A stretch of 64,000 bases of DNA from a phage: the NCBI GenBank assembly GCA_037431425.1, contig GCA_037431425.1_4129.1. The stretch is one strand, 5' to 3'. How positions within the stretch are numbered: position 1 is the first letter of the stretch; the number at the start of each line of letters is the position of its first letter. The position numbers were made by a program, and so were the translations under genes. Shown here one piece after another: positions 36,028-53,538 of this stretch. The notes under the pieces are model-generated. The model worked only from the letters and a program-made list of their open reading frames with translations, had not been told where the DNA came from and searched no databases.

Positions 36028-36143
<116 letters not shown>

Positions 36144-36150
36144 CAAAAGA

Positions 36151-36224
36151 CGGGGTATAGCACAATTGGATAGTGCAAGAGAATTCTAATCTCTAGGTTG
36201 GGGGTTCAAGTCCCTCTACCTCGG
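36151..36224 (+). tRNA. tRNA-Arg (anticodon UCU)
   Basis: manual fold: acceptor CGGGGTA/TACCTCG, anticodon stem AGAGA/TCTCT, loop ATTCTAA, T-loop TTCAAGT. Confidence 0.75.
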
Positions 36225-36248
36225 CCTACTTCAATTAAAGGTTAAACC

Positions 36249-36413
36249 ATGACGCATGAAGAATGGATGAATGACATTAATTTTAGATATGCAGGTATCG
36301 GTAACTGGAGAAAGTATCATTGGGAAATCATATCAGACCCAGCAGAATACGATAAACTTATGAATCATGAAGTGTATCCGTGGTTCTTTATTGAAATAAT
36401 GGTACGATTATGA
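36249..36413 (+). CDS. MTHEEW-family small protein (54 aa), tandem copy 1
   Basis: not in track; MTHEEWMNDINFRYAGIG... Confidence 0.45.
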   Translation: MTHEEWMNDINFRYAGIGNWRKYHWEIISDPAEYDKLMNHEVYPWFFIEIMVRL

Positions 36414-36570
36414 CACATGAAGAATGGATGAATGACATTAATTTTAGATATTCGGGTATCGGTAAATGGCTAAAGTATCATTGGGAATTCATTTCAGAGC
36501 CACATCTGTATGATAAACTTATCAACGATTCTGCATATAAAATGTACTTAATTGAACTACTGGTACGAAC

Positions 36571-36574
<4 letters not shown>
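36410..36574 (+). CDS. MTHEEW-family small protein (54 aa), tandem copy 2
   Basis: MTHEEWMNDINFRYSGIG...; start overlaps upstream stop. Confidence 0.45.
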
Positions 36575-36743
<169 letters not shown>

Positions 36744-36747
36744 AATC

Positions 36748-37188
<441 letters not shown>

Positions 37189-37216
37189 GTATCTTAACAA
37201 CAGAAGGTATATTGAA

Positions 37217-37456
37217 ATGGGTAAGTATTTTGTGAGTTATAGTTATAATGTATCACGAAAGATTCCACGCGGTGACGGAATGGGATGGTCTTATGATGCA
37301 TATACTTTAAATGAGTCATGTATCATCGAATTACAAGAAAAAGACCTTGACATTTTAAAAATCAAACAATATATTCTTGATGTTGAATTGGCACATCGTA
37401 CTGATACCTATCCAGATGTAAACAACATCAGCATCTTAGTACTAACCAAAGTATAA
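37217..37456 (+). CDS. hypothetical protein
   Basis: ATG 37217 after AGAAGG RBS; track start 37187. Confidence 0.5.
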   Translation: MGKYFVSYSYNVSRKIPRGDGMGWSYDAYTLNESCIIELQEKDLDILKIKQYILDVELAHRTDTYPDVNNISILVLTKV

Positions 37457-37526
37457 GATAAAAAGAACTTTACTAAATAATTCCACTGGAGATTAATATG
37501 TTTAAAGATGAACGTCCAGATTTGTA

Positions 37527-37565
<39 letters not shown>

Positions 37566-37571
37566 GAATTC

Positions 37572-37925
37572 CACAATCAGACGTATATGGTGTAAGTTAC
37601 GTCGATGCTATCCAGAACAAGATCTCTGGTACTCTAGGAAGTGGTGAATGTTAACCTAGACGGGTTTGATAATTGGACGATAGGCAATTATTACTTGACT
37701 AGCAGGTTGAAACTAGAGGTGACAGTCCTTCACCAAACTGGAAAGCCGGATGGACTTTTATTTAAAAGGGTAAGGCGTGGAAATATGTTTACTGTAGTTG
37801 CTTTTAGTAGCCTGTACGCCCCACGTCAAGGTAGTCGAAAGGCAAGTTAAAACGGGTGGTTATAAAGCTGAATTAACAGCGGCGTTTAAAAGCGTCACCA
37901 TCCATTTTTTTAATTAAAGTTGGCT
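37572..37925 (+). ncRNA. candidate structured noncoding RNA (unclassified)
   Basis: noticeably more GC-rich than flanks; only a poor 69-codon ORF; directly downstream of consensus promoter; inside tRNA cluster. Confidence 0.3.
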
Positions 37926-37927
37926 AT

Positions 37928-38295
<368 letters not shown>

Positions 38296-38305
<10 letters not shown>

Positions 38306-38324
38306 TATTCAGTACTGATATAAT
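38296..38324 (+). promoter_or_regulatory. sigma70-type promoter (TGGACA-17-TATAAT) for tRNA-Ser
   Basis: -10 ends 6 nt before tRNA 5' end; spacer contains TTCAGTACTG. Confidence 0.55.
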
Positions 38325-38330
38325 TAATTT

Positions 38331-38417
<87 letters not shown>

Positions 38418-38429
38418 TAAATTGTTCCA

Positions 38430-38516
<87 letters not shown>

Positions 38517-38566
38517 CTGATATTGTTATTATATGAGTTCTAACGATAATGAAACACTAGGAACAT

Positions 38567-38737
<171 letters not shown>

Positions 38738-38761
38738 ACGAAATTACAATAGGAAATTAAA

Positions 38762-38947
38762 ATGCAACTTTTAATTCTTTCAATATTGTATATTATTATA
38801 ATGGTTCCGATATCAATACGTTTAATTACAGTTGAACGATTTTTATCGAAACATGGAAATAGATCTATGATATTTGTACCAATCGGGTTGATATTGTTTG
38901 GTATATTTTCATTTATAATGGGAATTAACGCTACATTCATTTCATAG
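38762..38947 (+). CDS. small membrane protein
   Basis: 61 aa, two hydrophobic helices; RBS AGGAAA. Confidence 0.5.
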   Translation: MQLLILSILYIIIMVPISIRLITVERFLSKHGNRSMIFVPIGLILFGIFSFIMGINATFIS

Positions 38948-38956
38948 GAAACAAAT

Positions 38957-39214
<258 letters not shown>

Positions 39215-39316
39215 ATAAAAAGAACGAAAAGTAGACGGTCGTATTCAGTACTGAATCACCAGGGGAGGTTGTGATTCCCGATTCAGTAGCTTAAAAGCAG
39301 ACCCGTATGTGCCTAA

Positions 39317-39369
<53 letters not shown>

Positions 39370-39370
39370 T

Positions 39371-39416
<46 letters not shown>

Positions 39417-39417
39417 T

Positions 39418-39551
<134 letters not shown>

Positions 39552-39553
39552 TA

Positions 39554-39737
<184 letters not shown>

Positions 39738-39817
39738 TAAATAATACAGTAAGATGGCCTCCCCTCCATATCATGAGAGTATAGAGACTTGTTGGTTATC
39801 TTACTTTTAAACAAACT

Positions 39818-39891
39818 GCCTCAATAGCAAAATTGGTAATGCACACGTTTTGTAAGCGTGAGATTTTTCCGTTCGAGTCGGAATTGGGGCA
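39818..39891 (+). tRNA. tRNA-Thr (anticodon UGU)
   Basis: manual fold: acceptor GCCTCAA/TTGGGGC (one GU), anticodon stem CACGT/GCGTG, loop TTTGTAA, T-arm TTCCG-TTCGAGT-CGGAA; variable loop 6 nt (slightly atypical). Confidence 0.65.
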
Positions 39892-39908
39892 CAAAATAAA
39901 GGCACACT

Positions 39909-50664: not shown

Positions 50665-51630
50665 GTGAAAAAACTTGATTTGAATACAATTGCAGATGAA
50701 GTTCTGGATGAATGCTTTGGTAATGAAGAAGTGAATACGCTGGATGCGTTAGAACCAGTTCAAGAAAAAGATAACATTGACGAGAAAAATAATGGTAATT
50801 TCAAGTTTAATATTAGTCTTAAGCGACCAGCAAATGTAACAAATGAAGATATTATTCGTGATATTCAAGCAGGTATTAACGTAAAGAAAAATACTGAACT
50901 ATTAGTTCGTTATAATTACGGTTTGATTATTGATGTTGCAAGTAAATGCACGTGTTATATTCCATTTGAAGATAAGATTTCATATGGCATTGAGGGATTC
51001 ATGCGAGCATTAAAAACATTTGACCTTAGTAAGAATGTAAAGTTCGCTACGTATGCATCGTCAAGTATCTATATGACTGTATACAATGAAAGCTCAGATG
51101 CTAATCATCTGGTCCACTTCCCTCGTTACATGAGTGTTAATAAGATACAAGTGAAACGCTTCTGTCATAATTATGAGCGTCAGCATGGTTGTCGTCCTAC
51201 ACCTGAAATTATTTCTGAAGAGACTGGTATTGAAATCCAGCACGTTAAGAATTGTTTATTATTCCAAAGTGAATATACTTCACTGGATGCACCATTGGAT
51301 GGTGTTTCTGATGGGACGATGAGTGATATTCTGCATTCATCTGAAGGTGATTATAATCTTAATGTTGACAGTATTCGTGCACCGTTGCGTTATACCATCA
51401 ACGAACTAACTAATGAGTTGAGTGCTAAGGAATGTGAGATTATTCAACGTGTTCATGGATTAGGTGAATTTAATCCTGAAACACTACGTGAAATTGCTGA
51501 TAGTGGTTTTATTGATGACAATGGTAAGTGTGTAAAATCCAGATCTTCGGTTCATCGTAAATACAGTGATGCTCTTAAGAAACTCAAGAAATTAGTGCTC
51601 GCTAAAGGGTACGAATACGAAGATTTCTAA
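50665..51630 (+). CDS. RNA polymerase sigma factor, sigma-70 family (regions 2 and 4)
   Basis: 321 aa; GTG start after AGGAGAAG RBS; region 2-like FMRALKTFD...KFATYASSSI and region 4 HTH-like LREIADSGF...SRSSVHRKYSDALKKLKKL. Confidence 0.6.
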   Translation: MKKLDLNTIADEVLDECFGNEEVNTLDALEPVQEKDNIDEKNNGNFKFNISLKRPANVTNEDIIRDIQAGINVKKNTELLVRYNYGLIIDVASKCTCYIPFEDKISYGIEGFMRALKTFDLSKNVKFATYASSSIYMTVYNESSDANHLVHFPRYMSVNKIQVKRFCHNYERQHGCRPTPEIISEETGIEIQHVKNCLLFQSEYTSLDAPLDGVSDGTMSDILHSSEGDYNLNVDSIRAPLRYTINELTNELSAKECEIIQRVHGLGEFNPETLREIADSGFIDDNGKCVKSRSSVHRKYSDALKKLKKLVLAKGYEYEDF

Positions 51631-51636
51631 ATTGTA

Positions 51637-51663
51637 AAGGTTGGCATATGCCAACCTTTTTTA
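51637..51663 (+). terminator. intrinsic terminator
   Basis: AAGGTTGGCAT/ATGCCAACCTT palindrome followed by TTTTTT. Confidence 0.8.
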
Positions 51664-51947
51664 TTGGGACACAGAATAAATATATGATATAATAATTATG
51701 TACAATCCTGTTGAATGCAGAAATGCATATAAATTAGAACCTGATCCTATCGAAAACGTAGATGGCAGATGAGCAGTTCAGCAGTGCGATGAGCAGAAGA
51801 AACCCGTCAGAAGTGGGCATAGTTTGAACCCCTCACGGCAATGCGGCTCAATAAAGAACTCCGATAAGCATACAGAGAGTTCCTAGATAGACATATAAGG
51901 AATCACACCTTACCAGATTTGCTAAGGGAGTCTTGAAATAAGACAGC

Positions 51948-52253
51948 TTGAGCTTTGATTGTATAGAGTTTCAAGTGAGTGCTGGGATGAAAAGACCAGT
52001 GACCGTTGCATATGACCGTGATAGGGAGAAACAGAGCAACCCGCTTCCGTTTGTGATTGATCATTTTAACAATATAGATCCGTCCAAAATTCACGATACA
52101 ATAATATCCGATGCCATCAGCGTCAAGAAGAGACTTAATTGTCTCTTTTTTATTACTTTCATTCCCCTGTGGGGGGATGAAATAGTCCTCAACAAATCCC
52201 GTCAAGTATTAAAAGTCCTAGACAGTTATGAAACATTCGCGTATAATACGTAG
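51948..52253 (+). CDS. questionable ORF in compositionally atypical region
   Basis: 101 aa ORF almost fully overlapped by a 100-aa antisense ORF; region more GC-rich than surroundings. Confidence 0.3.
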   Translation: MSFDCIEFQVSAGMKRPVTVAYDRDREKQSNPLPFVIDHFNNIDPSKIHDTIISDAISVKKRLNCLFFITFIPLWGDEIVLNKSRQVLKVLDSYETFAYNT

Positions 52254-52311
52254 TATTAGAAGCGAACAGACATCTCGAAGAGATGGATGATTAACTATTA
52301 AGGAATATCCA

Positions 52312-52749: not shown

Positions 52750-53538
52750 ATGTGCACTATAGATGAACTGATTCGACGGAATTCAAAATATTACAAACCA
52801 TCAGAAATTGTAGATAACATTACTAAATCAGAGTTCGGACCAAATACACGAAAACTAATTCATGTAATGTTACGTGATGGCTTTAAATGTGATTGTTGTG
52901 GTGAATCCAATGTGGTATTCACTTTACATAAGCACAGTACTAAAGAACGTTATAAATTCAGACCTTATGTACTTAAAGGGAAACGCCTTGTACGCATGAC
53001 GTTAGACCATAATGTACTGGACTGTCTTCAGGGCGGTAATGATAAAGAAAACATGACTGCACTGTGTGAGGATTGCAATGCATTACGCCAGCATAAATTT
53101 GCTGAGTACAGCGAGTTTAAGTTCTGGTATCATAATGCAGATCGTTCTATTGAACCTGACGTTAACTACTGCTTTATCGAGTACATTAAGAATGCAAAAG
53201 ATACATACATTCTTAAATCTATGGAACCAATTACCGTGTTTCCAATGAACCTATACACTACATTAAAGAATAGTTTTATGGTAGGTGATATTGATGCATT
53301 CAAGTATTTTGACAAAGGTGCAAAACATTTTGAAGTTCAATGTCTTAGTACTGCACTATGTGAACTTATTAAAATTTACATAAAAGATTATTTGGGTATT
53401 GACAATGTACGCGTACCAGAGTATACTTTTTCTATTGATTTCGATTGTGAATCAATCAAAGAGTTTGGGATTCTTTTCAATAAACAAATAGAACTTGCAA
53501 TTCAAAACGAAATCAAGTACTATAATACTAACATTTAA
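52750..53538 (+). CDS. HNH endonuclease (putative free-standing homing endonuclease)
   Basis: 262 aa; Cys pairs CDCCG / CEDCN flanking LDHNVLDCLQGGN (H-N-H core). Confidence 0.7.
   Translation: MCTIDELIRRNSKYYKPSEIVDNITKSEFGPNTRKLIHVMLRDGFKCDCCGESNVVFTLHKHSTKERYKFRPYVLKGKRLVRMTLDHNVLDCLQGGNDKENMTALCEDCNALRQHKFAEYSEFKFWYHNADRSIEPDVNYCFIEYIKNAKDTYILKSMEPITVFPMNLYTTLKNSFMVGDIDAFKYFDKGAKHFEVQCLSTALCELIKIYIKDYLGIDNVRVPEYTFSIDFDCESIKEFGILFNKQIELAIQNEIKYYNTNI

What the first reader, a model, noticed from the sequence alone, without database searches (positions are those of the whole stretch)
51690..52260. Compositionally atypical GC-richer island with overlapping ORFs on both strands
Between the sigma-factor terminator and the next gene cluster, the sequence is visibly more GC-rich, contains the short direct repeat GATGAGCAG twice, and supports about 100-codon ORFs on both strands (51948-52253 +, 51903-52205 -), which is typical of noncoding or recently acquired DNA rather than a native phage gene. 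It could be a structured RNA, a gene remnant, or a horizontally acquired fragment.
Basis: seen in the sequence. Interest (0 to 1): 0.45.

Follow-up and report, generated by a model that had tools for sequence, protein, structure and literature searches.

The report
New large structured phage RNA gene
The GC-rich "island" is not junk or a dead gene. It is a gene for a roughly 500-base, intricately folded non-coding RNA of a family I could not find described anywhere, kept in 4-5 copies by every RaK2-like jumbo phage and in one copy by a group of enterobacterial prophages.

Summary
Window 51700-52207 is the most GC-rich 508-nt stretch of the 64-kb window (0.419 vs 0.331). It holds GATGAGCAG twice and about 100-codon ORFs on both strands.

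Neither ORF is a gene. They have no Pfam or PHROG match, no open frame is conserved among homologues, and ph0011's GenBank record leaves the gap empty.

The region is a free-standing RNA gene on the + strand. It has an extended -10 promoter (TGATATAAT, 51685-51693), a core of about 430 nt, a terminator-like hairpin (52125-52156) and a conserved 3' module reaching about 52206.

The family occurs 4-5 times in each of about 72 RaK2-like jumbo phages. It also occurs once, between integrase and CI repressor, in enterobacterial prophages.

On an alignment made without reference to structure (42 copies), 72 proposed pairs are 96% paired (shuffles 82%, slid controls about 42%). Forty pairs carry compensatory changes, and three of the 15 helices are pseudoknotted. 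With 76 copies the figures are 95% and 47 pairs.

Rfam 15 gives no match for three divergent members at E up to 10, and ten literature searches found no description. Function is unknown. My best guess is a trans-acting RNA machine or scaffold made early by host polymerase, analogous to ROOL and GOLLD.

The parts
51636..51665 (+). Intrinsic terminator of the upstream sigma-factor gene. It marks the 5' boundary of the intergenic gap and is not part of the RNA.
   Evidence: 10-bp stem plus a T run. The weak STnc390/STnc430 Rfam hits here only reflect a terminator shape.
51664..51693 (+). Promoter of the RNA gene. The -35-like element is TTGGGACA and the extended -10 is TGATATAAT (51685-51693). 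The predicted start is near 51700.
   Evidence: Promoter scan scores 10/12 with TG. A -10 TAYAMT motif is present in 75 of 76 copies, 59 of them with the TG extension. The -35 TGAAACG/TGrGACA type matches the 'divergent RpoD-like' promoter class described for CBB and GAP32 (PMC5259590). The start site is inferred, not measured.
51711..51732 (+). Leader hairpin (UGCA-GAAA-UGCA core). It varies in sequence and length but is present at this site in the copies.
   Evidence: Alignments show a hairpin with a different sequence at the same place in each paralogue type. It is part of the MFE fold.
51741..51768 (+). Long bulged hairpin capped by the conserved 9-nt loop GAAAAYGUA (51752-51760). The outer pairs are CUG/CAG and the inner pairs run 51746-51 with 51761-65.
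   Evidence: Four of the five inner pairs show compensatory changes (helix 1). The outer 3 bp covary as CUG/CAG, CUA/UAG, CCG/CGG and CCA/UGG.
51769..51850 (+). 5' domain. It holds the invariant AUGAG linker, helix 51773-75/51785-87, helix 51790-94/51846-50 and helix 51804-07/51835-38 enclosing a small GGG/CCC hairpin with the conserved loop CAUAGUUUGNA.
   Evidence: Searches give 98-100% pairing with 2-4 pair types. In three copies the inner hairpin is replaced by CCG-UUCG-CGG.
51841..51894 (+). Pseudoknotted 3-bp helix AUG (51841-43) with CAU (51892-94). It spans hairpin 51856-61/51877-82.
   Evidence: The pairs read AUG/CAU, ACA/UGU and AUA/UAU. Hairpin 51856-82 has compensatory changes in 6 of 6 pairs (helix 6).
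51896..51944 (+). Hairpin 51896-99/51909-12, the near-invariant single strand UAAGGGAG (51923-30), and a variable peripheral hairpin (here GUCUU/AAGAC, 51930-44).
   Evidence: AAGGGA is invariant in the 42-copy alignment. Pair counts are (helix 7). In other copies the peripheral site carries a long hairpin with the module UACAAUAUAGAUCCGUCCAAAAUU.
51947..52101 (+). Central pseudoknotted domain. It contains hairpin 51947-56/51965-75 and pseudoknot PK1, in which loop bases 51959-64 pair with 52096-52101. It also contains hairpin 51980-85/51996-52001, PK2 (52005-09 with 52036-40), helix 52017-21/52091-95, hairpin 52024-28/52044-48 and peripheral hairpin 52051-53/52085-87.
   Evidence: PK1 is paired in 42/42 and 76/76 sequences, and all 6 pairs covary. 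PK2 is 100% paired (CG:28, UA:14). Helices 11-13 are 97-100% paired with 3 covarying pairs each.
52110..52126 (+). Small hairpin GAUG/CGUC (52110-13 with 52121-24) and the first copy of the motif CGUCAA (52121-26).
   Evidence: 88% paired, with one-sided changes only (helix 14). C-N-U-C-A is invariant.
52125..52156 (+). Terminator-like hairpin AAGAGAC-UUAAUU-GUCUCUU plus U6. It is present in about half of the copies.
   Evidence: Terminator scan. The stems covary. About half of the copies lack it, which joins the core directly to the 3' module (reading of the alignment).
52158..52206 (+). Conserved 3' module. It consists of hairpin UUCAUUCCCC-UGU-GGGGGGAUGAA (52158-81) and the tail GUCCUCAACAAAUCCCGUCAAG, which carries the second CGUCAA (52200-05).
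   Evidence: GGGGGAU is invariant and GGGGGAUGAA nearly so, and the tail is nearly invariant across jumbo phages and prophages. The hairpin is 91% paired but shows only one-sided (C/U) changes, so the pairing is plausible but not proven (helix 15).
52240..52272 (+). Possible extra 3' hairpin (UUCGC-GUAUAAUAC-GUA-GUAUUAGAA-GCGAA). It overlaps a promoter-like site (52219-52247) for the next genes. Whether it belongs to the RNA is uncertain.
   Evidence: 33 of 74 copies (0 of 74 upstream controls) carry a hairpin with an apical AACG(N)AGUGA within 300 nt downstream. In RaK2 and prophage L083 it is a long terminator-like hairpin. The window copy does not match the strict motif; the hairpin here is my own reading of the sequence. 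The promoter scan is.
51948..52253 (+). 101-codon ORF. It is spurious.
   Evidence: No Pfam or PHROG family matches at E up to 1. No open frame is conserved at the same aligned position, strand or frame in 42 copies.
51903..52205 (-). 100-codon ORF on the opposite strand. It is spurious.
   Evidence: Only sub-threshold noise hits, and it is not conserved. The minus strand folds no better than shuffles (z = -1.6).

Best explanation
Window 51700 to about 52206 (+ strand) is a free-standing gene for a large, complex-folded non-coding RNA. The RNA is about 460 nt if it ends at the internal terminator and about 510 nt with the conserved 3' module. It may reach about 570 nt.

Shown here:
- It belongs to a family with 4-5 diverged copies in each RaK2-like jumbo phage examined. 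This phage is essentially Escherichia phage ph0011, an Asteriusvirus with 4 copies.
- The family also has one copy, between integrase and CI repressor, in a group of enterobacterial prophages.
- Each copy has its own extended -10 promoter.
- The sequence evolves under constraint to keep at least 15 helices, three of them pseudoknotted, on the + strand.
- It encodes no conserved protein.
- It matches no Rfam 15 family.

Inferred:
- Host sigma-70 RNA polymerase transcribes it early or constitutively.
- In copies such as this one, the internal terminator lets part of the transcripts stop at about 52156 while the rest read through into the conserved 3' module.

Best guess at mechanism, about 55-60% given that it is an RNA gene: the folded RNA acts in trans as an abundant RNA machine or scaffold. 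It would bind, sequester or process a conserved host or phage component during takeover or phage-host conflict. This would resemble the phage-borne ornate RNAs ROOL and GOLLD, possibly as a homo-oligomer. The paralogue-specific pseudoknot sequences would then keep each paralogue folding or assembling with itself.

The probability that it is a functional structured RNA gene is about 0.93. The confidence given for this explanation is for the whole statement, including trans action.
For: Family and copy number. blastn finds the element in 70-73 phage records, all RaK2-like jumbo phages, at 4-5 places per record. There are four co-oriented copies in the fully fetched TH47 genome. Fifty-eight further copies were confirmed by nhmmer in metagenomes and bacterial genomes.

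Prophage context. The layout is integrase, then the RNA, then a convergent CI-like repressor. The flanking ORFs have no jumbo-phage homology.

Structure.
- RNAalifold on an alignment made without reference to structure predicts 56 pairs, 30 with compensatory changes.
- For 72 curated pairs, 96.1% of cells are paired, against 81.7% in shuffles (0 of 500 reach it) and 39-44% in slid controls. Forty pairs carry double changes (shuffle mean 29.7; slid 9-17), in 443 cells against 119.
- With 76 copies, 95.3% are paired, with 47 such pairs and 827 cells.
- PK1 is paired in every sequence, with 2-3 pair types at all six pairs.

Strand. The fold z-score is -4.2 on the + strand and -1.6 on the - strand. 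Many G-U pairs would be A-C mismatches on the other strand.

Promoter. It is present in 75 of 76 copies and is of the class described in PMC5259590.

Not coding.

Not a known family. Rfam at gathering threshold on the whole window, and at E up to 10 on three divergent members, returns only noise. ARAGORN finds no tRNA or tmRNA here.

Ancient paralogues. Copies differ by 17-27% within a genome but by about 7% between orthologues of different genera.
Against: - No transcript has been observed. The start, the ends and the abundance are all predictions.
- I found no RNA-seq data for any RaK2-like phage other than PA5oct, and its four lncRNAs are not homologous.
- Trans action, binding partners, catalysis and oligomerisation are untested guesses.
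- The most conserved 3' module lies after a good terminator in this copy. Its hairpin shows no compensatory change (helices 14-15), so that part could act at the DNA level or as a protein site.
- Related sequences inflate covariation counts. The slid controls and the spread over many helices argue against artefact, but no phylogeny-aware test (R-scape) was run.
- One copy (TH47 146k) lacks the promoter.
Confidence: 0.6

Rival explanations
1. It is a cis-acting replication origin primed by its own transcript, in the manner of ColE1 RNA II or T4 oriF/oriG. A promoter would drive a structured RNA that forms a persistent R-loop, perhaps through the invariant G6 run, and primes DNA synthesis. Several dispersed copies would serve a 350-kb genome.
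For: There are four to five dispersed, co-oriented copies per jumbo genome. Each has a promoter. The length of about 500 nt is like RNA II, and the GGGGGG run is invariant. T4-like phages are known to use several origins with promoter-primed R-loops (established knowledge). The promoter class is the one found mostly before DNA-synthesis genes in CBB.
Against: A primer RNA would not be expected to need the intricate, pseudoknotted and strongly covarying fold. In the prophages the element sits between int and cI, facing cI, which is not where lambdoid or P2-like origins lie. It also occurs in a small E. coli island next to ffs. No flanking AT-rich unwinding element or iterons were noticed. T4 origins are not sequence paralogues of each other.
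Confidence: 0.07
2. It is a cis-regulatory 5' leader for the downstream genes, such as a riboswitch, an attenuator or a processive antitermination RNA like HK022 put. The internal terminator would be the regulated step.
For: About half of the copies carry a terminator between the core and the 3' module. The same motif CGUCAR occurs on both sides of the terminator, which could allow alternative pairings with GAYG. In jumbo phages three of the four TH47 copies are co-oriented with the genes downstream.
Against: Downstream genes differ between paralogous loci. In the prophages the RNA converges on the 3' end of cI, so there is no gene to regulate. The other half of the copies have no terminator. 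The size and complexity exceed those of known leaders. No Rfam riboswitch matches.
Confidence: 0.06
3. It is an RNA decoy against host immunity, an RNA anti-CRISPR of the solitary-repeat kind. The 3' hairpin UUCCCC-loop-GGGGGGAUGAAA would mimic a type I-E CRISPR repeat and trap Cas6e or Cascade subunits.
For: The hairpin plus the following AUGAAA loosely resembles the E. coli I-E repeat GUUCCCCGCGCCAGCGGGGAUAAACCG (recalled from memory, not tested). Two homologues give a weak CRISPR-DR37 match on this hairpin (E = 2 and 7.5). The element occurs in both lytic and temperate phages of hosts that carry I-E systems, and it has strong promoters.
Against: The Rfam hits are far below threshold (16-18 bits against 40), lie on the opposite strand, and are absent for the window copy. 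The stem is shorter and the handle matches at only about 4 of 8 positions. A decoy would not need a conserved pseudoknotted core of about 430 nt.
Confidence: 0.04
4. It is a degenerate remnant or recently acquired foreign fragment with no function of its own, or one of the two 100-codon ORFs is a real gene.
For: The composition is atypical. Several GenBank records annotate short hypothetical proteins over homologous copies. The window copy is a mosaic of paralogue types.
Against: Conservation is 66-90% across genera, with about 130 invariant or nearly invariant positions. Substitutions are compensatory rather than third-codon-position changes. No ORF is conserved in position or frame and no protein family matches. 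The promoter is conserved.
Confidence: 0.02

Closest known systems
ROOL RNA (Rfam RF03087) and GOLLD RNA (Rfam RF01998), large 'ornate' RNAs of phages and prophages
   Same: Both are free-standing RNA genes of about 500-800 nt carried by phages and prophages, with many helices and several pseudoknots, no known protein partner and unknown function (PMC12286853). The present RNA shares the size class, the ecological niche (lytic phage plus prophage), the pseudoknotted complexity and interchangeable peripheral hairpins.
   Different: There is no sequence or structure match to either covariance model at E up to 10 in three divergent members. The hosts are Enterobacterales, whereas the GOLLD/ROOL names and examples point to Lactobacillales, rumen and lake or marine samples. 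It is not next to the tRNA cluster, which lies about 12 kb away. It is multi-copy per genome, with ancient paralogue types. Oligomerisation is untested.
ColE1 RNA II and T4 oriF/oriG origin transcripts
   Same: A promoter drives a structured transcript of about 500 nt that contains a G run, and T4-type genomes have several such sites.
   Different: The RNA has pseudoknots and deep covariation. It occurs in prophage int-cI regions and in a small island. No antisense RNA I-like partner was found, and no Rfam match.
PA5oct lncRNAs ncRNA001-004 (RNA-seq-defined, PMC7318152)
   Same: They are unannotated, ORF-free transcripts of 236-619 nt in a distant relative of the RaK2-like clade. Two of them make up about 1-5% of phage reads at each sampled time point.
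   Different: nhmmer in max-sensitivity mode finds no homology to any of the four. They are an analogue at best.
RNA anti-CRISPRs (solitary CRISPR-repeat units in phages)
   Same: They are phage-borne, promoter-driven and contain a G/C hairpin followed by a handle-like A-rich sequence.
   Different: Only a small 3' part resembles a repeat, and only weakly. The bulk of the RNA has no counterpart.

Membership tests
ROOL (RF03087) / GOLLD (RF01998) | A match to the family covariance model (sequence plus consensus structure). | tested here: not met
   cmscan found nothing on the element at gathering threshold on the whole window. At E up to 10 with permissive filters it returned only unrelated noise for the window copy, a prophage copy and the RaK2 copy.
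ROOL / GOLLD | A phage or prophage location, often beside tRNA islands. | tested here: inconclusive
   The phage and prophage location is met. The nearest tRNAs in the window are at 36-40 kb, about 12 kb away. The other copies were not checked for tRNA neighbours.
ROOL / GOLLD | Homo-oligomeric RNA-only assembly. | not testable with these tools
   This needs SEC-MALS, native gels or cryo-EM.
Group I intron (RF00028) | A conserved P3-P9 core with a G-binding site, inserted in a host gene whose exons are joined by splicing. | tested here: not met
   There is no Rfam match. The element is intergenic with its own promoter and has no split flanking ORF.
RNase P RNA / tmRNA / 6S RNA | A match to the respective Rfam models. 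For tmRNA, also a tRNA-like domain and a tag reading frame. | tested here: not met
   No Rfam match. ARAGORN finds only six tRNAs elsewhere and no tmRNA.
Protein-coding gene (either ORF) | An open frame conserved among homologues, a protein-family match and a codon-position substitution pattern. | tested here: not met
   Open stretches differ in strand, frame and position among 42 copies. No Pfam or PHROG family reaches its threshold. Substitutions are paired across helices.
Solitary CRISPR repeat / RNA anti-CRISPR | Close sequence and hairpin match to a CRISPR repeat family of the host. | tested here: inconclusive
   Only sub-threshold CRISPR-DR37 hits (16.5 and 18.4 bits against a gathering score of 40) in two homologues, on the minus strand, and none in the window copy. 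No host repeat was compared directly.
Transcript-primed replication origin (ColE1 / T4 oriF type) | A persistent RNA-DNA hybrid at a DNA unwinding element, with initiation mapped at the site. | not testable with these tools
   Only indirect arguments are available (copy number, promoter, G run against the prophage position).
Sigma-70 type promoter plus intrinsic terminator (an independent transcription unit) | -10/-35 hexamers at the correct spacing, and a G+C hairpin followed by a U run. | tested here: met
   Promoter 51664-51693 scores 10/12 with the TG extension, and the terminator-like site is 52125-52150 plus a T run. The -10 is conserved in 75 of 76 copies. Use in vivo was not tested.

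The most novel reading that the evidence does not exclude
This would be a new class of large catalytic or self-assembling RNA used in phage-host conflict. The RNA would fold into a pseudoknotted core. Like ROOL and GOLLD, it would form RNA-only homo-oligomers, or act as a ribozyme or as a decoy for a conserved host machine. The paralogue-specific PK1 sequences would act as 'address codes' that keep the 4-5 paralogues of one jumbo phage from mis-assembling. The same device would serve temperate phages from the int-cI moron position.
Probability: 0.25. Interest if true: 0.9.

Novelty: categorically new. Interest (0 to 1): 0.8.

Why it matters
Complex-folded RNAs longer than about 400 nt with several pseudoknots are rare. 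Almost all those with known function are ribozymes, ribonucleoprotein cores or striking RNA-only assemblies. Each new class (OLE, GOLLD, ROOL, HEARO, raiA) has opened a line of work.

This one sits in well-studied, culturable systems: E. coli, Salmonella, Klebsiella, Erwinia, Serratia and Yersinia jumbo phages, several of them proposed for therapy or biocontrol. Genetics, RNA-seq, pull-downs and cryo-EM are therefore immediately feasible, unlike for most metagenome-derived RNAs.

Two features point to a general and dosage-sensitive role in infection. The family is present in both lytic jumbo phages (4-5 ancient paralogues) and temperate prophages (one copy beside the immunity repressor).

There is also a practical consequence. 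Several GenBank records annotate short 'hypothetical proteins' over these loci, and those calls should be removed.

The wider category, ornate phage RNAs of unknown function, has precedents. What is new is the family itself, not the idea that phages carry such RNAs.

Tried and rejected
- Rfam at gathering threshold on the whole window, and at E up to 10 on the region and on two divergent homologues, gave only terminator-shaped or random noise.
- ARAGORN found no tRNA or tmRNA in the region.
- Pfam and PHROGs on both ORFs returned nothing above threshold.
- A search for further copies inside the 64-kb window by blastn and nhmmer found only this one.
- The PA5oct RNA-seq lncRNAs 001-004 were tested as possible homologues, which would have given expression evidence. 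None matched.
- A proposed helix CUGAU/GUYAG (51741-45 with 51806-10) was rejected. Pairing is poor (21-22 of 39 sequences at two of its pairs), and the partner is absent in copies with the UUCG replacement.
- RNAalifold's 52005-07/52014-16 helix was replaced by the better supported PK2.
- A closing helix between the 5' leader UGUUGA and the 3' UCAACA was considered. It shows no covariation on reading the alignment.
- UAAGGGAG as a Shine-Dalgarno site for a short ORF was rejected because no start codon or frame is conserved.
- The loose pattern used for the genome and metagenome scans gave mostly chance hits and had to be filtered with nhmmer.
- E. coli complete genomes hold only 2 partial, unannotated matches among 5,426 genomes.
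- Ten literature searches found no description of the family. One further search failed on syntax.
- A terminator count by regex was unreliable because CTTCA matched the motif. I counted the alignment by eye instead.
- No covariance model was built, because the RNA exceeds the size the tool can calibrate.
Full report
**1. What the window is**

The region matches Escherichia phage ph0011 (Asteriusvirus, 348 kb) at 99.3% identity. Window position 51601 corresponds to ph0011 position 314702. In ph0011's GenBank record the stretch between the sigma-factor gene and the next small ORF is unannotated.

**2. Checking the observation**

- GC rises to 0.41-0.435 across 51700-52200, against about 0.29-0.35 in most flanking 200-nt windows.
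- The stretch 51700-52207 (GC 0.419) is the single most GC-rich 508-nt stretch of the 64-kb window, whose mean is 0.331.
- GATGAGCAG occurs only at 51768 and 51788, with 0.19 occurrences expected.
- The sigma-factor terminator is at 51636-51659. A promoter-like site with an extended -10 lies at 51664-51693, and a terminator-like hairpin at 52125-52150.

**3. It is not a protein gene**

- Neither ORF matches a Pfam or PHROG family above noise.
- Across 42 homologous copies, open stretches lie on different strands, in different frames and at different positions.
- Indels between copies are not multiples of three. Substitutions come in pairs across helices.

**4. It is a multi-copy, widely conserved element**

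blastn against 50,697 phage records finds it in 70-73 records. All are RaK2-like jumbo phages: Asteriusvirus, Mimasvirus (GAP32, CBB), Alcyoneusvirus (RaK2, K64-1), Yersinia fHe-Yen9, Serratia BF, and Erwinia, Xanthomonas XaC1/XbC2 and Salmonella 7t3/Munch phages. Each record holds 4-5 places.

I fetched the whole unannotated TH47 genome. It holds four copies, all on the same strand, at 49.4, 146.0, 261.9 and 345.5 kb. Only one copy lies inside the window.

In RaK2 one copy also sits directly after the sigma-factor gene, where an ORF245 'hypothetical protein' is annotated over the core. UE-S1 annotates part of another copy as 'repeat_region'.

Two pattern scans of IMG/VR gave further copies. 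One loose scan each of GTDB genomes and JGI metagenomes, filtered with nhmmer, gave 58 confirmed matches.

**5. An unexpected second habitat**

Full-length copies occur in bacterial assemblies of Enterobacterales. These are Silvania hatchlandensis H19S6, Serratia sp. 2723, Enterobacteriaceae bacterium RIT714, and Buttiauxella and Enterobacteriaceae MAGs.

- Their flanking ORFs have no similarity to the jumbo phage.
- Pfam shows the layout: an integrase (tyrosine type, or a large serine recombinase), then the RNA, then a convergent CI-like repressor with HTH_3 plus Peptidase_S24.
- A conserved cro-side gene set follows. These are therefore temperate prophages with one copy in the int-cI region.
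- The element's GC (0.36-0.39) is equal to or below that of these loci (0.39-0.51).
- In E. coli complete genomes only 2 of 5,426 carry a partial copy. It lies in an unannotated 1.4-kb gap of an island next to ffs that has a truncated integrase.
- No isolated temperate phage in GenBank has it.

**6. Anatomy**

Alignments show the following order.

- A promoter: a -35-like TGAAACG or TGrGACA and an extended -10 TGnTATAAT. The -10 is present in 75 of 76 copies, 59 of them with TG.
- A variable leader hairpin.
- A conserved core of about 430 nt.
- The motif CGUCAR.
- In about half of the copies, including this one, a terminator hairpin plus a U run.
- A nearly invariant 3' module (UUCAUUCCCC-loop-GGGGGGAUGAAA .. 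CCUCAACAAAUCYCGUCAR).

Copies without the terminator join the core directly to the 3' module, so that module belongs to the RNA.

In 33 of 74 copies (0 of 74 upstream controls) a further hairpin with an apical AACG(N)AGUGA follows within 300 nt. In RaK2 and one prophage it looks like the real terminator.

The promoter type is the 'divergent RpoD-like' class reported for CBB and GAP32, which has -35 TGAAACG (PMC5259590).

A module UACAAUAUAGAUCCGUCCAAAAUU occurs 0, 1 or 2 times, at either of two peripheral hairpin sites. Large structured RNAs behave this way when peripheral elements are interchangeable.

**7. Structure**

- RNAalifold on the MAFFT alignment of 42 distinct copies, made without reference to structure, predicts 56 pairs, 30 of them with compensatory changes.
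- I curated 72 pairs in 15 helices, three of them pseudoknotted, and counted them on the same alignment:

| Measure | Observed | 500 shuffles | Slid controls |
|---|---|---|---|
| Cells paired | 96.1% | 81.7% (0 of 500 reach it) | 39-44% |
| Pairs with changes on both sides | 40 | 29.7 | 9-17 |
| Cells with such changes | 443 | 119 | 16-69 |
| Covariation score | 0.447 | 0.183 | 0.06-0.10 |

- With 76 copies, including prophage and metagenome members, the same pairs give 95.3% paired, 47 covarying pairs and 827 cells. The shuffle maxima are 80.8%, 42 and 261.
- PK1 joins hairpin-loop bases 51959-64 to 52096-52101. It is paired in every sequence, and all six pairs covary (AUUGUAU/AUACAAU, GUCGAAU/AUUCGAC, UCAUAU/AUAUGA, ACUGUAU/AUACAGU).
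- PK2 (52005-09 with 52036-40) switches from GUUGC/GCAAC to GUUGU/ACAAC in 14 sequences.
- A 3-bp pseudoknot joins 51841-43 to 51892-94.
- An extra outer helix, CUG/CAG, covaries around the first hairpin.
- In three copies an internal hairpin is replaced by a CCG-UUCG-CGG tetraloop hairpin.
- The + strand folds far better than shuffles (z = -4.23). The - strand does not (z = -1.61). Frequent G-U pairs fix the strand.
- Weak points: the small hairpin 52110-24 and the 3' G-hairpin show only one-sided changes. No phylogeny-aware test was run.

**8. Evolution of the copies**

Clustering groups orthologous copies from different genera together. Divergence is about 7% between orthologues, for example CBB_a and GAP32_a. 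Paralogues within one genome differ by 17-27%.

The paralogue types are therefore old and kept separately, each with its own PK1 sequence.

The window copy is a mosaic. Its 5' third resembles the copy that lies next to endonuclease VII in UE-S1 and TH47. The rest resembles TH47's sigma-locus copy. This explains why the best blast place in UE-S1 was a different locus. The TH47 sigma-locus copy lacks the promoter.

**9. Comparison with known families**

- Rfam 15 (4,227 families) gives no match on the element at gathering threshold.
- At E up to 10 it gives only noise for the window copy, a prophage copy and the RaK2 copy.
- ARAGORN finds nothing here.
- PGAP and Bakta annotations are empty at these loci.
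- Ten full-text searches found no description.
- The closest analogues by kind are ROOL and GOLLD. These are large pseudoknotted RNAs of phages and prophages with unknown function that form RNA-only cages (PMC12286853). Membership was tested and not met.
- PA5oct, a distant relative, expresses four ORF-free lncRNAs, two of them at about 1-5% of phage reads (PMC7318152). They are not homologous.

**10. How it most likely works**

Shown: this is an independent, conserved transcription unit encoding a pseudoknotted RNA.

Inferred: host sigma-70 polymerase makes it early or constitutively. The promoter class fits this, as does the moron-like position in prophages facing cI. The internal terminator gives short and read-through forms.

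Guess: it acts in trans as an abundant RNA machine or scaffold on a conserved host or phage target. Three observations argue for this:
- About 130 positions are invariant or nearly so across lytic and temperate phages.
- Many of these lie in loops and junctions (GAAAAYGUA, AUGAG, GGCAAUGYGGC, GAUAG twice, UAAGGGAG, GACCGUUGC, CAACCCGC).
- Jumbo phages keep several copies, which suggests dosage matters.

Rivals:
- A transcript-primed origin (7%).
- A cis leader or antiterminator (6%).
- A CRISPR-repeat decoy based on the 3' hairpin (4%). The only support is two sub-threshold CRISPR-DR37 hits and a resemblance recalled from memory.
- A remnant or a real ORF (2%).
- The rest of the probability is 'functional RNA of some other kind'.

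**11. Verdict**

The finding is real.

The thing found is a well-supported new family of large structured phage RNA with unknown function. It is of high interest because it is complex, widespread, multi-copy and sits in tractable model hosts.

Noticed in passing
window 36057-39892: A cluster of six tRNA genes (Ser-tga, Arg-tct, Ser-gct, Met-cat, Asn-gtt, Thr-tgt), about 12 kb upstream of the RNA gene. ROOL and GOLLD often sit near tRNA islands. I did not check whether any of the other three copies of this RNA lies next to tRNAs.
   Followed up: no
window 52750-53538: A 262-aa ORF annotated as an HNH endonuclease in ph0011 lies about 550 nt downstream of the RNA gene. It could be a homing endonuclease. 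It is not a conserved neighbour of the other copies.
   Followed up: partly
window 52158-52181; L125 6800-6837; L010 1614-1653: The invariant 3' hairpin UUCCCC-loop-GGGGGGAUGAAA loosely resembles a type I-E CRISPR repeat. It gives sub-threshold CRISPR-DR37 hits in two homologues (E = 2 and 7.5, minus strand) but none in the window copy.
   Followed up: partly
window 52121-52126 and 52200-52205: The motif CGUCAA occurs on both sides of the terminator and 3' hairpin. It changes in parallel in other copies (CGUCAG with CGUCAG; CUUCAA with CUUCAA in RaK2). This hints at two equivalent binding or processing sites, or alternative pairing with GAYG at 52110-13.
   Followed up: partly
window 52219-52272; loci L083, L010, L069 and others downstream of the element: A further hairpin with an apical AACG(N)AGUGA, inside a GAAUU...AAUUC stem, follows 33 of 74 copies and none of 74 upstream controls. 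The motif is not enriched elsewhere in the TH47 genome. In the window the corresponding hairpin overlaps a promoter-like TAGACA-17-TATAAT site.
   Followed up: partly
L069, L083, L103, L125, L130, L142, L151 (bacterial genome contigs): A family of enterobacterial prophages with interchangeable integrases (tyrosine or large serine) but a conserved RNA-cI-cro-like module. In L083 the prophage end lies next to a TPP riboswitch and thiM, and in L125 next to sRNA STnc450.
   Followed up: partly
L282 (E. coli LR-29-1, NZ_AP027515.1 3472142-3486515): A partial copy of the RNA lies in a 1.4-kb unannotated gap of an island inserted beside ffs. The island holds a truncated integrase, an IS3, and DUF4326, DUF488 and dual-OB-domain genes.
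   Followed up: no
GenBank records of RaK2, 7t3, SHEFM2K, JP4, fHe-Yen9-04 and others at the homologous loci: Short 'hypothetical protein' CDSs (for example RaK2 ORF245 and 7t3_0445-0447) are annotated over copies of the RNA. They are probably false gene calls.
   Followed up: partly
TH47 (MT446416.1) 146028-146544: The TH47 copy that is syntenic with the window's copy lacks the TGnTATAAT promoter present in 75 of 76 copies. The sigma-factor 3' region upstream is also diverged between TH47 and the window.
   Followed up: no
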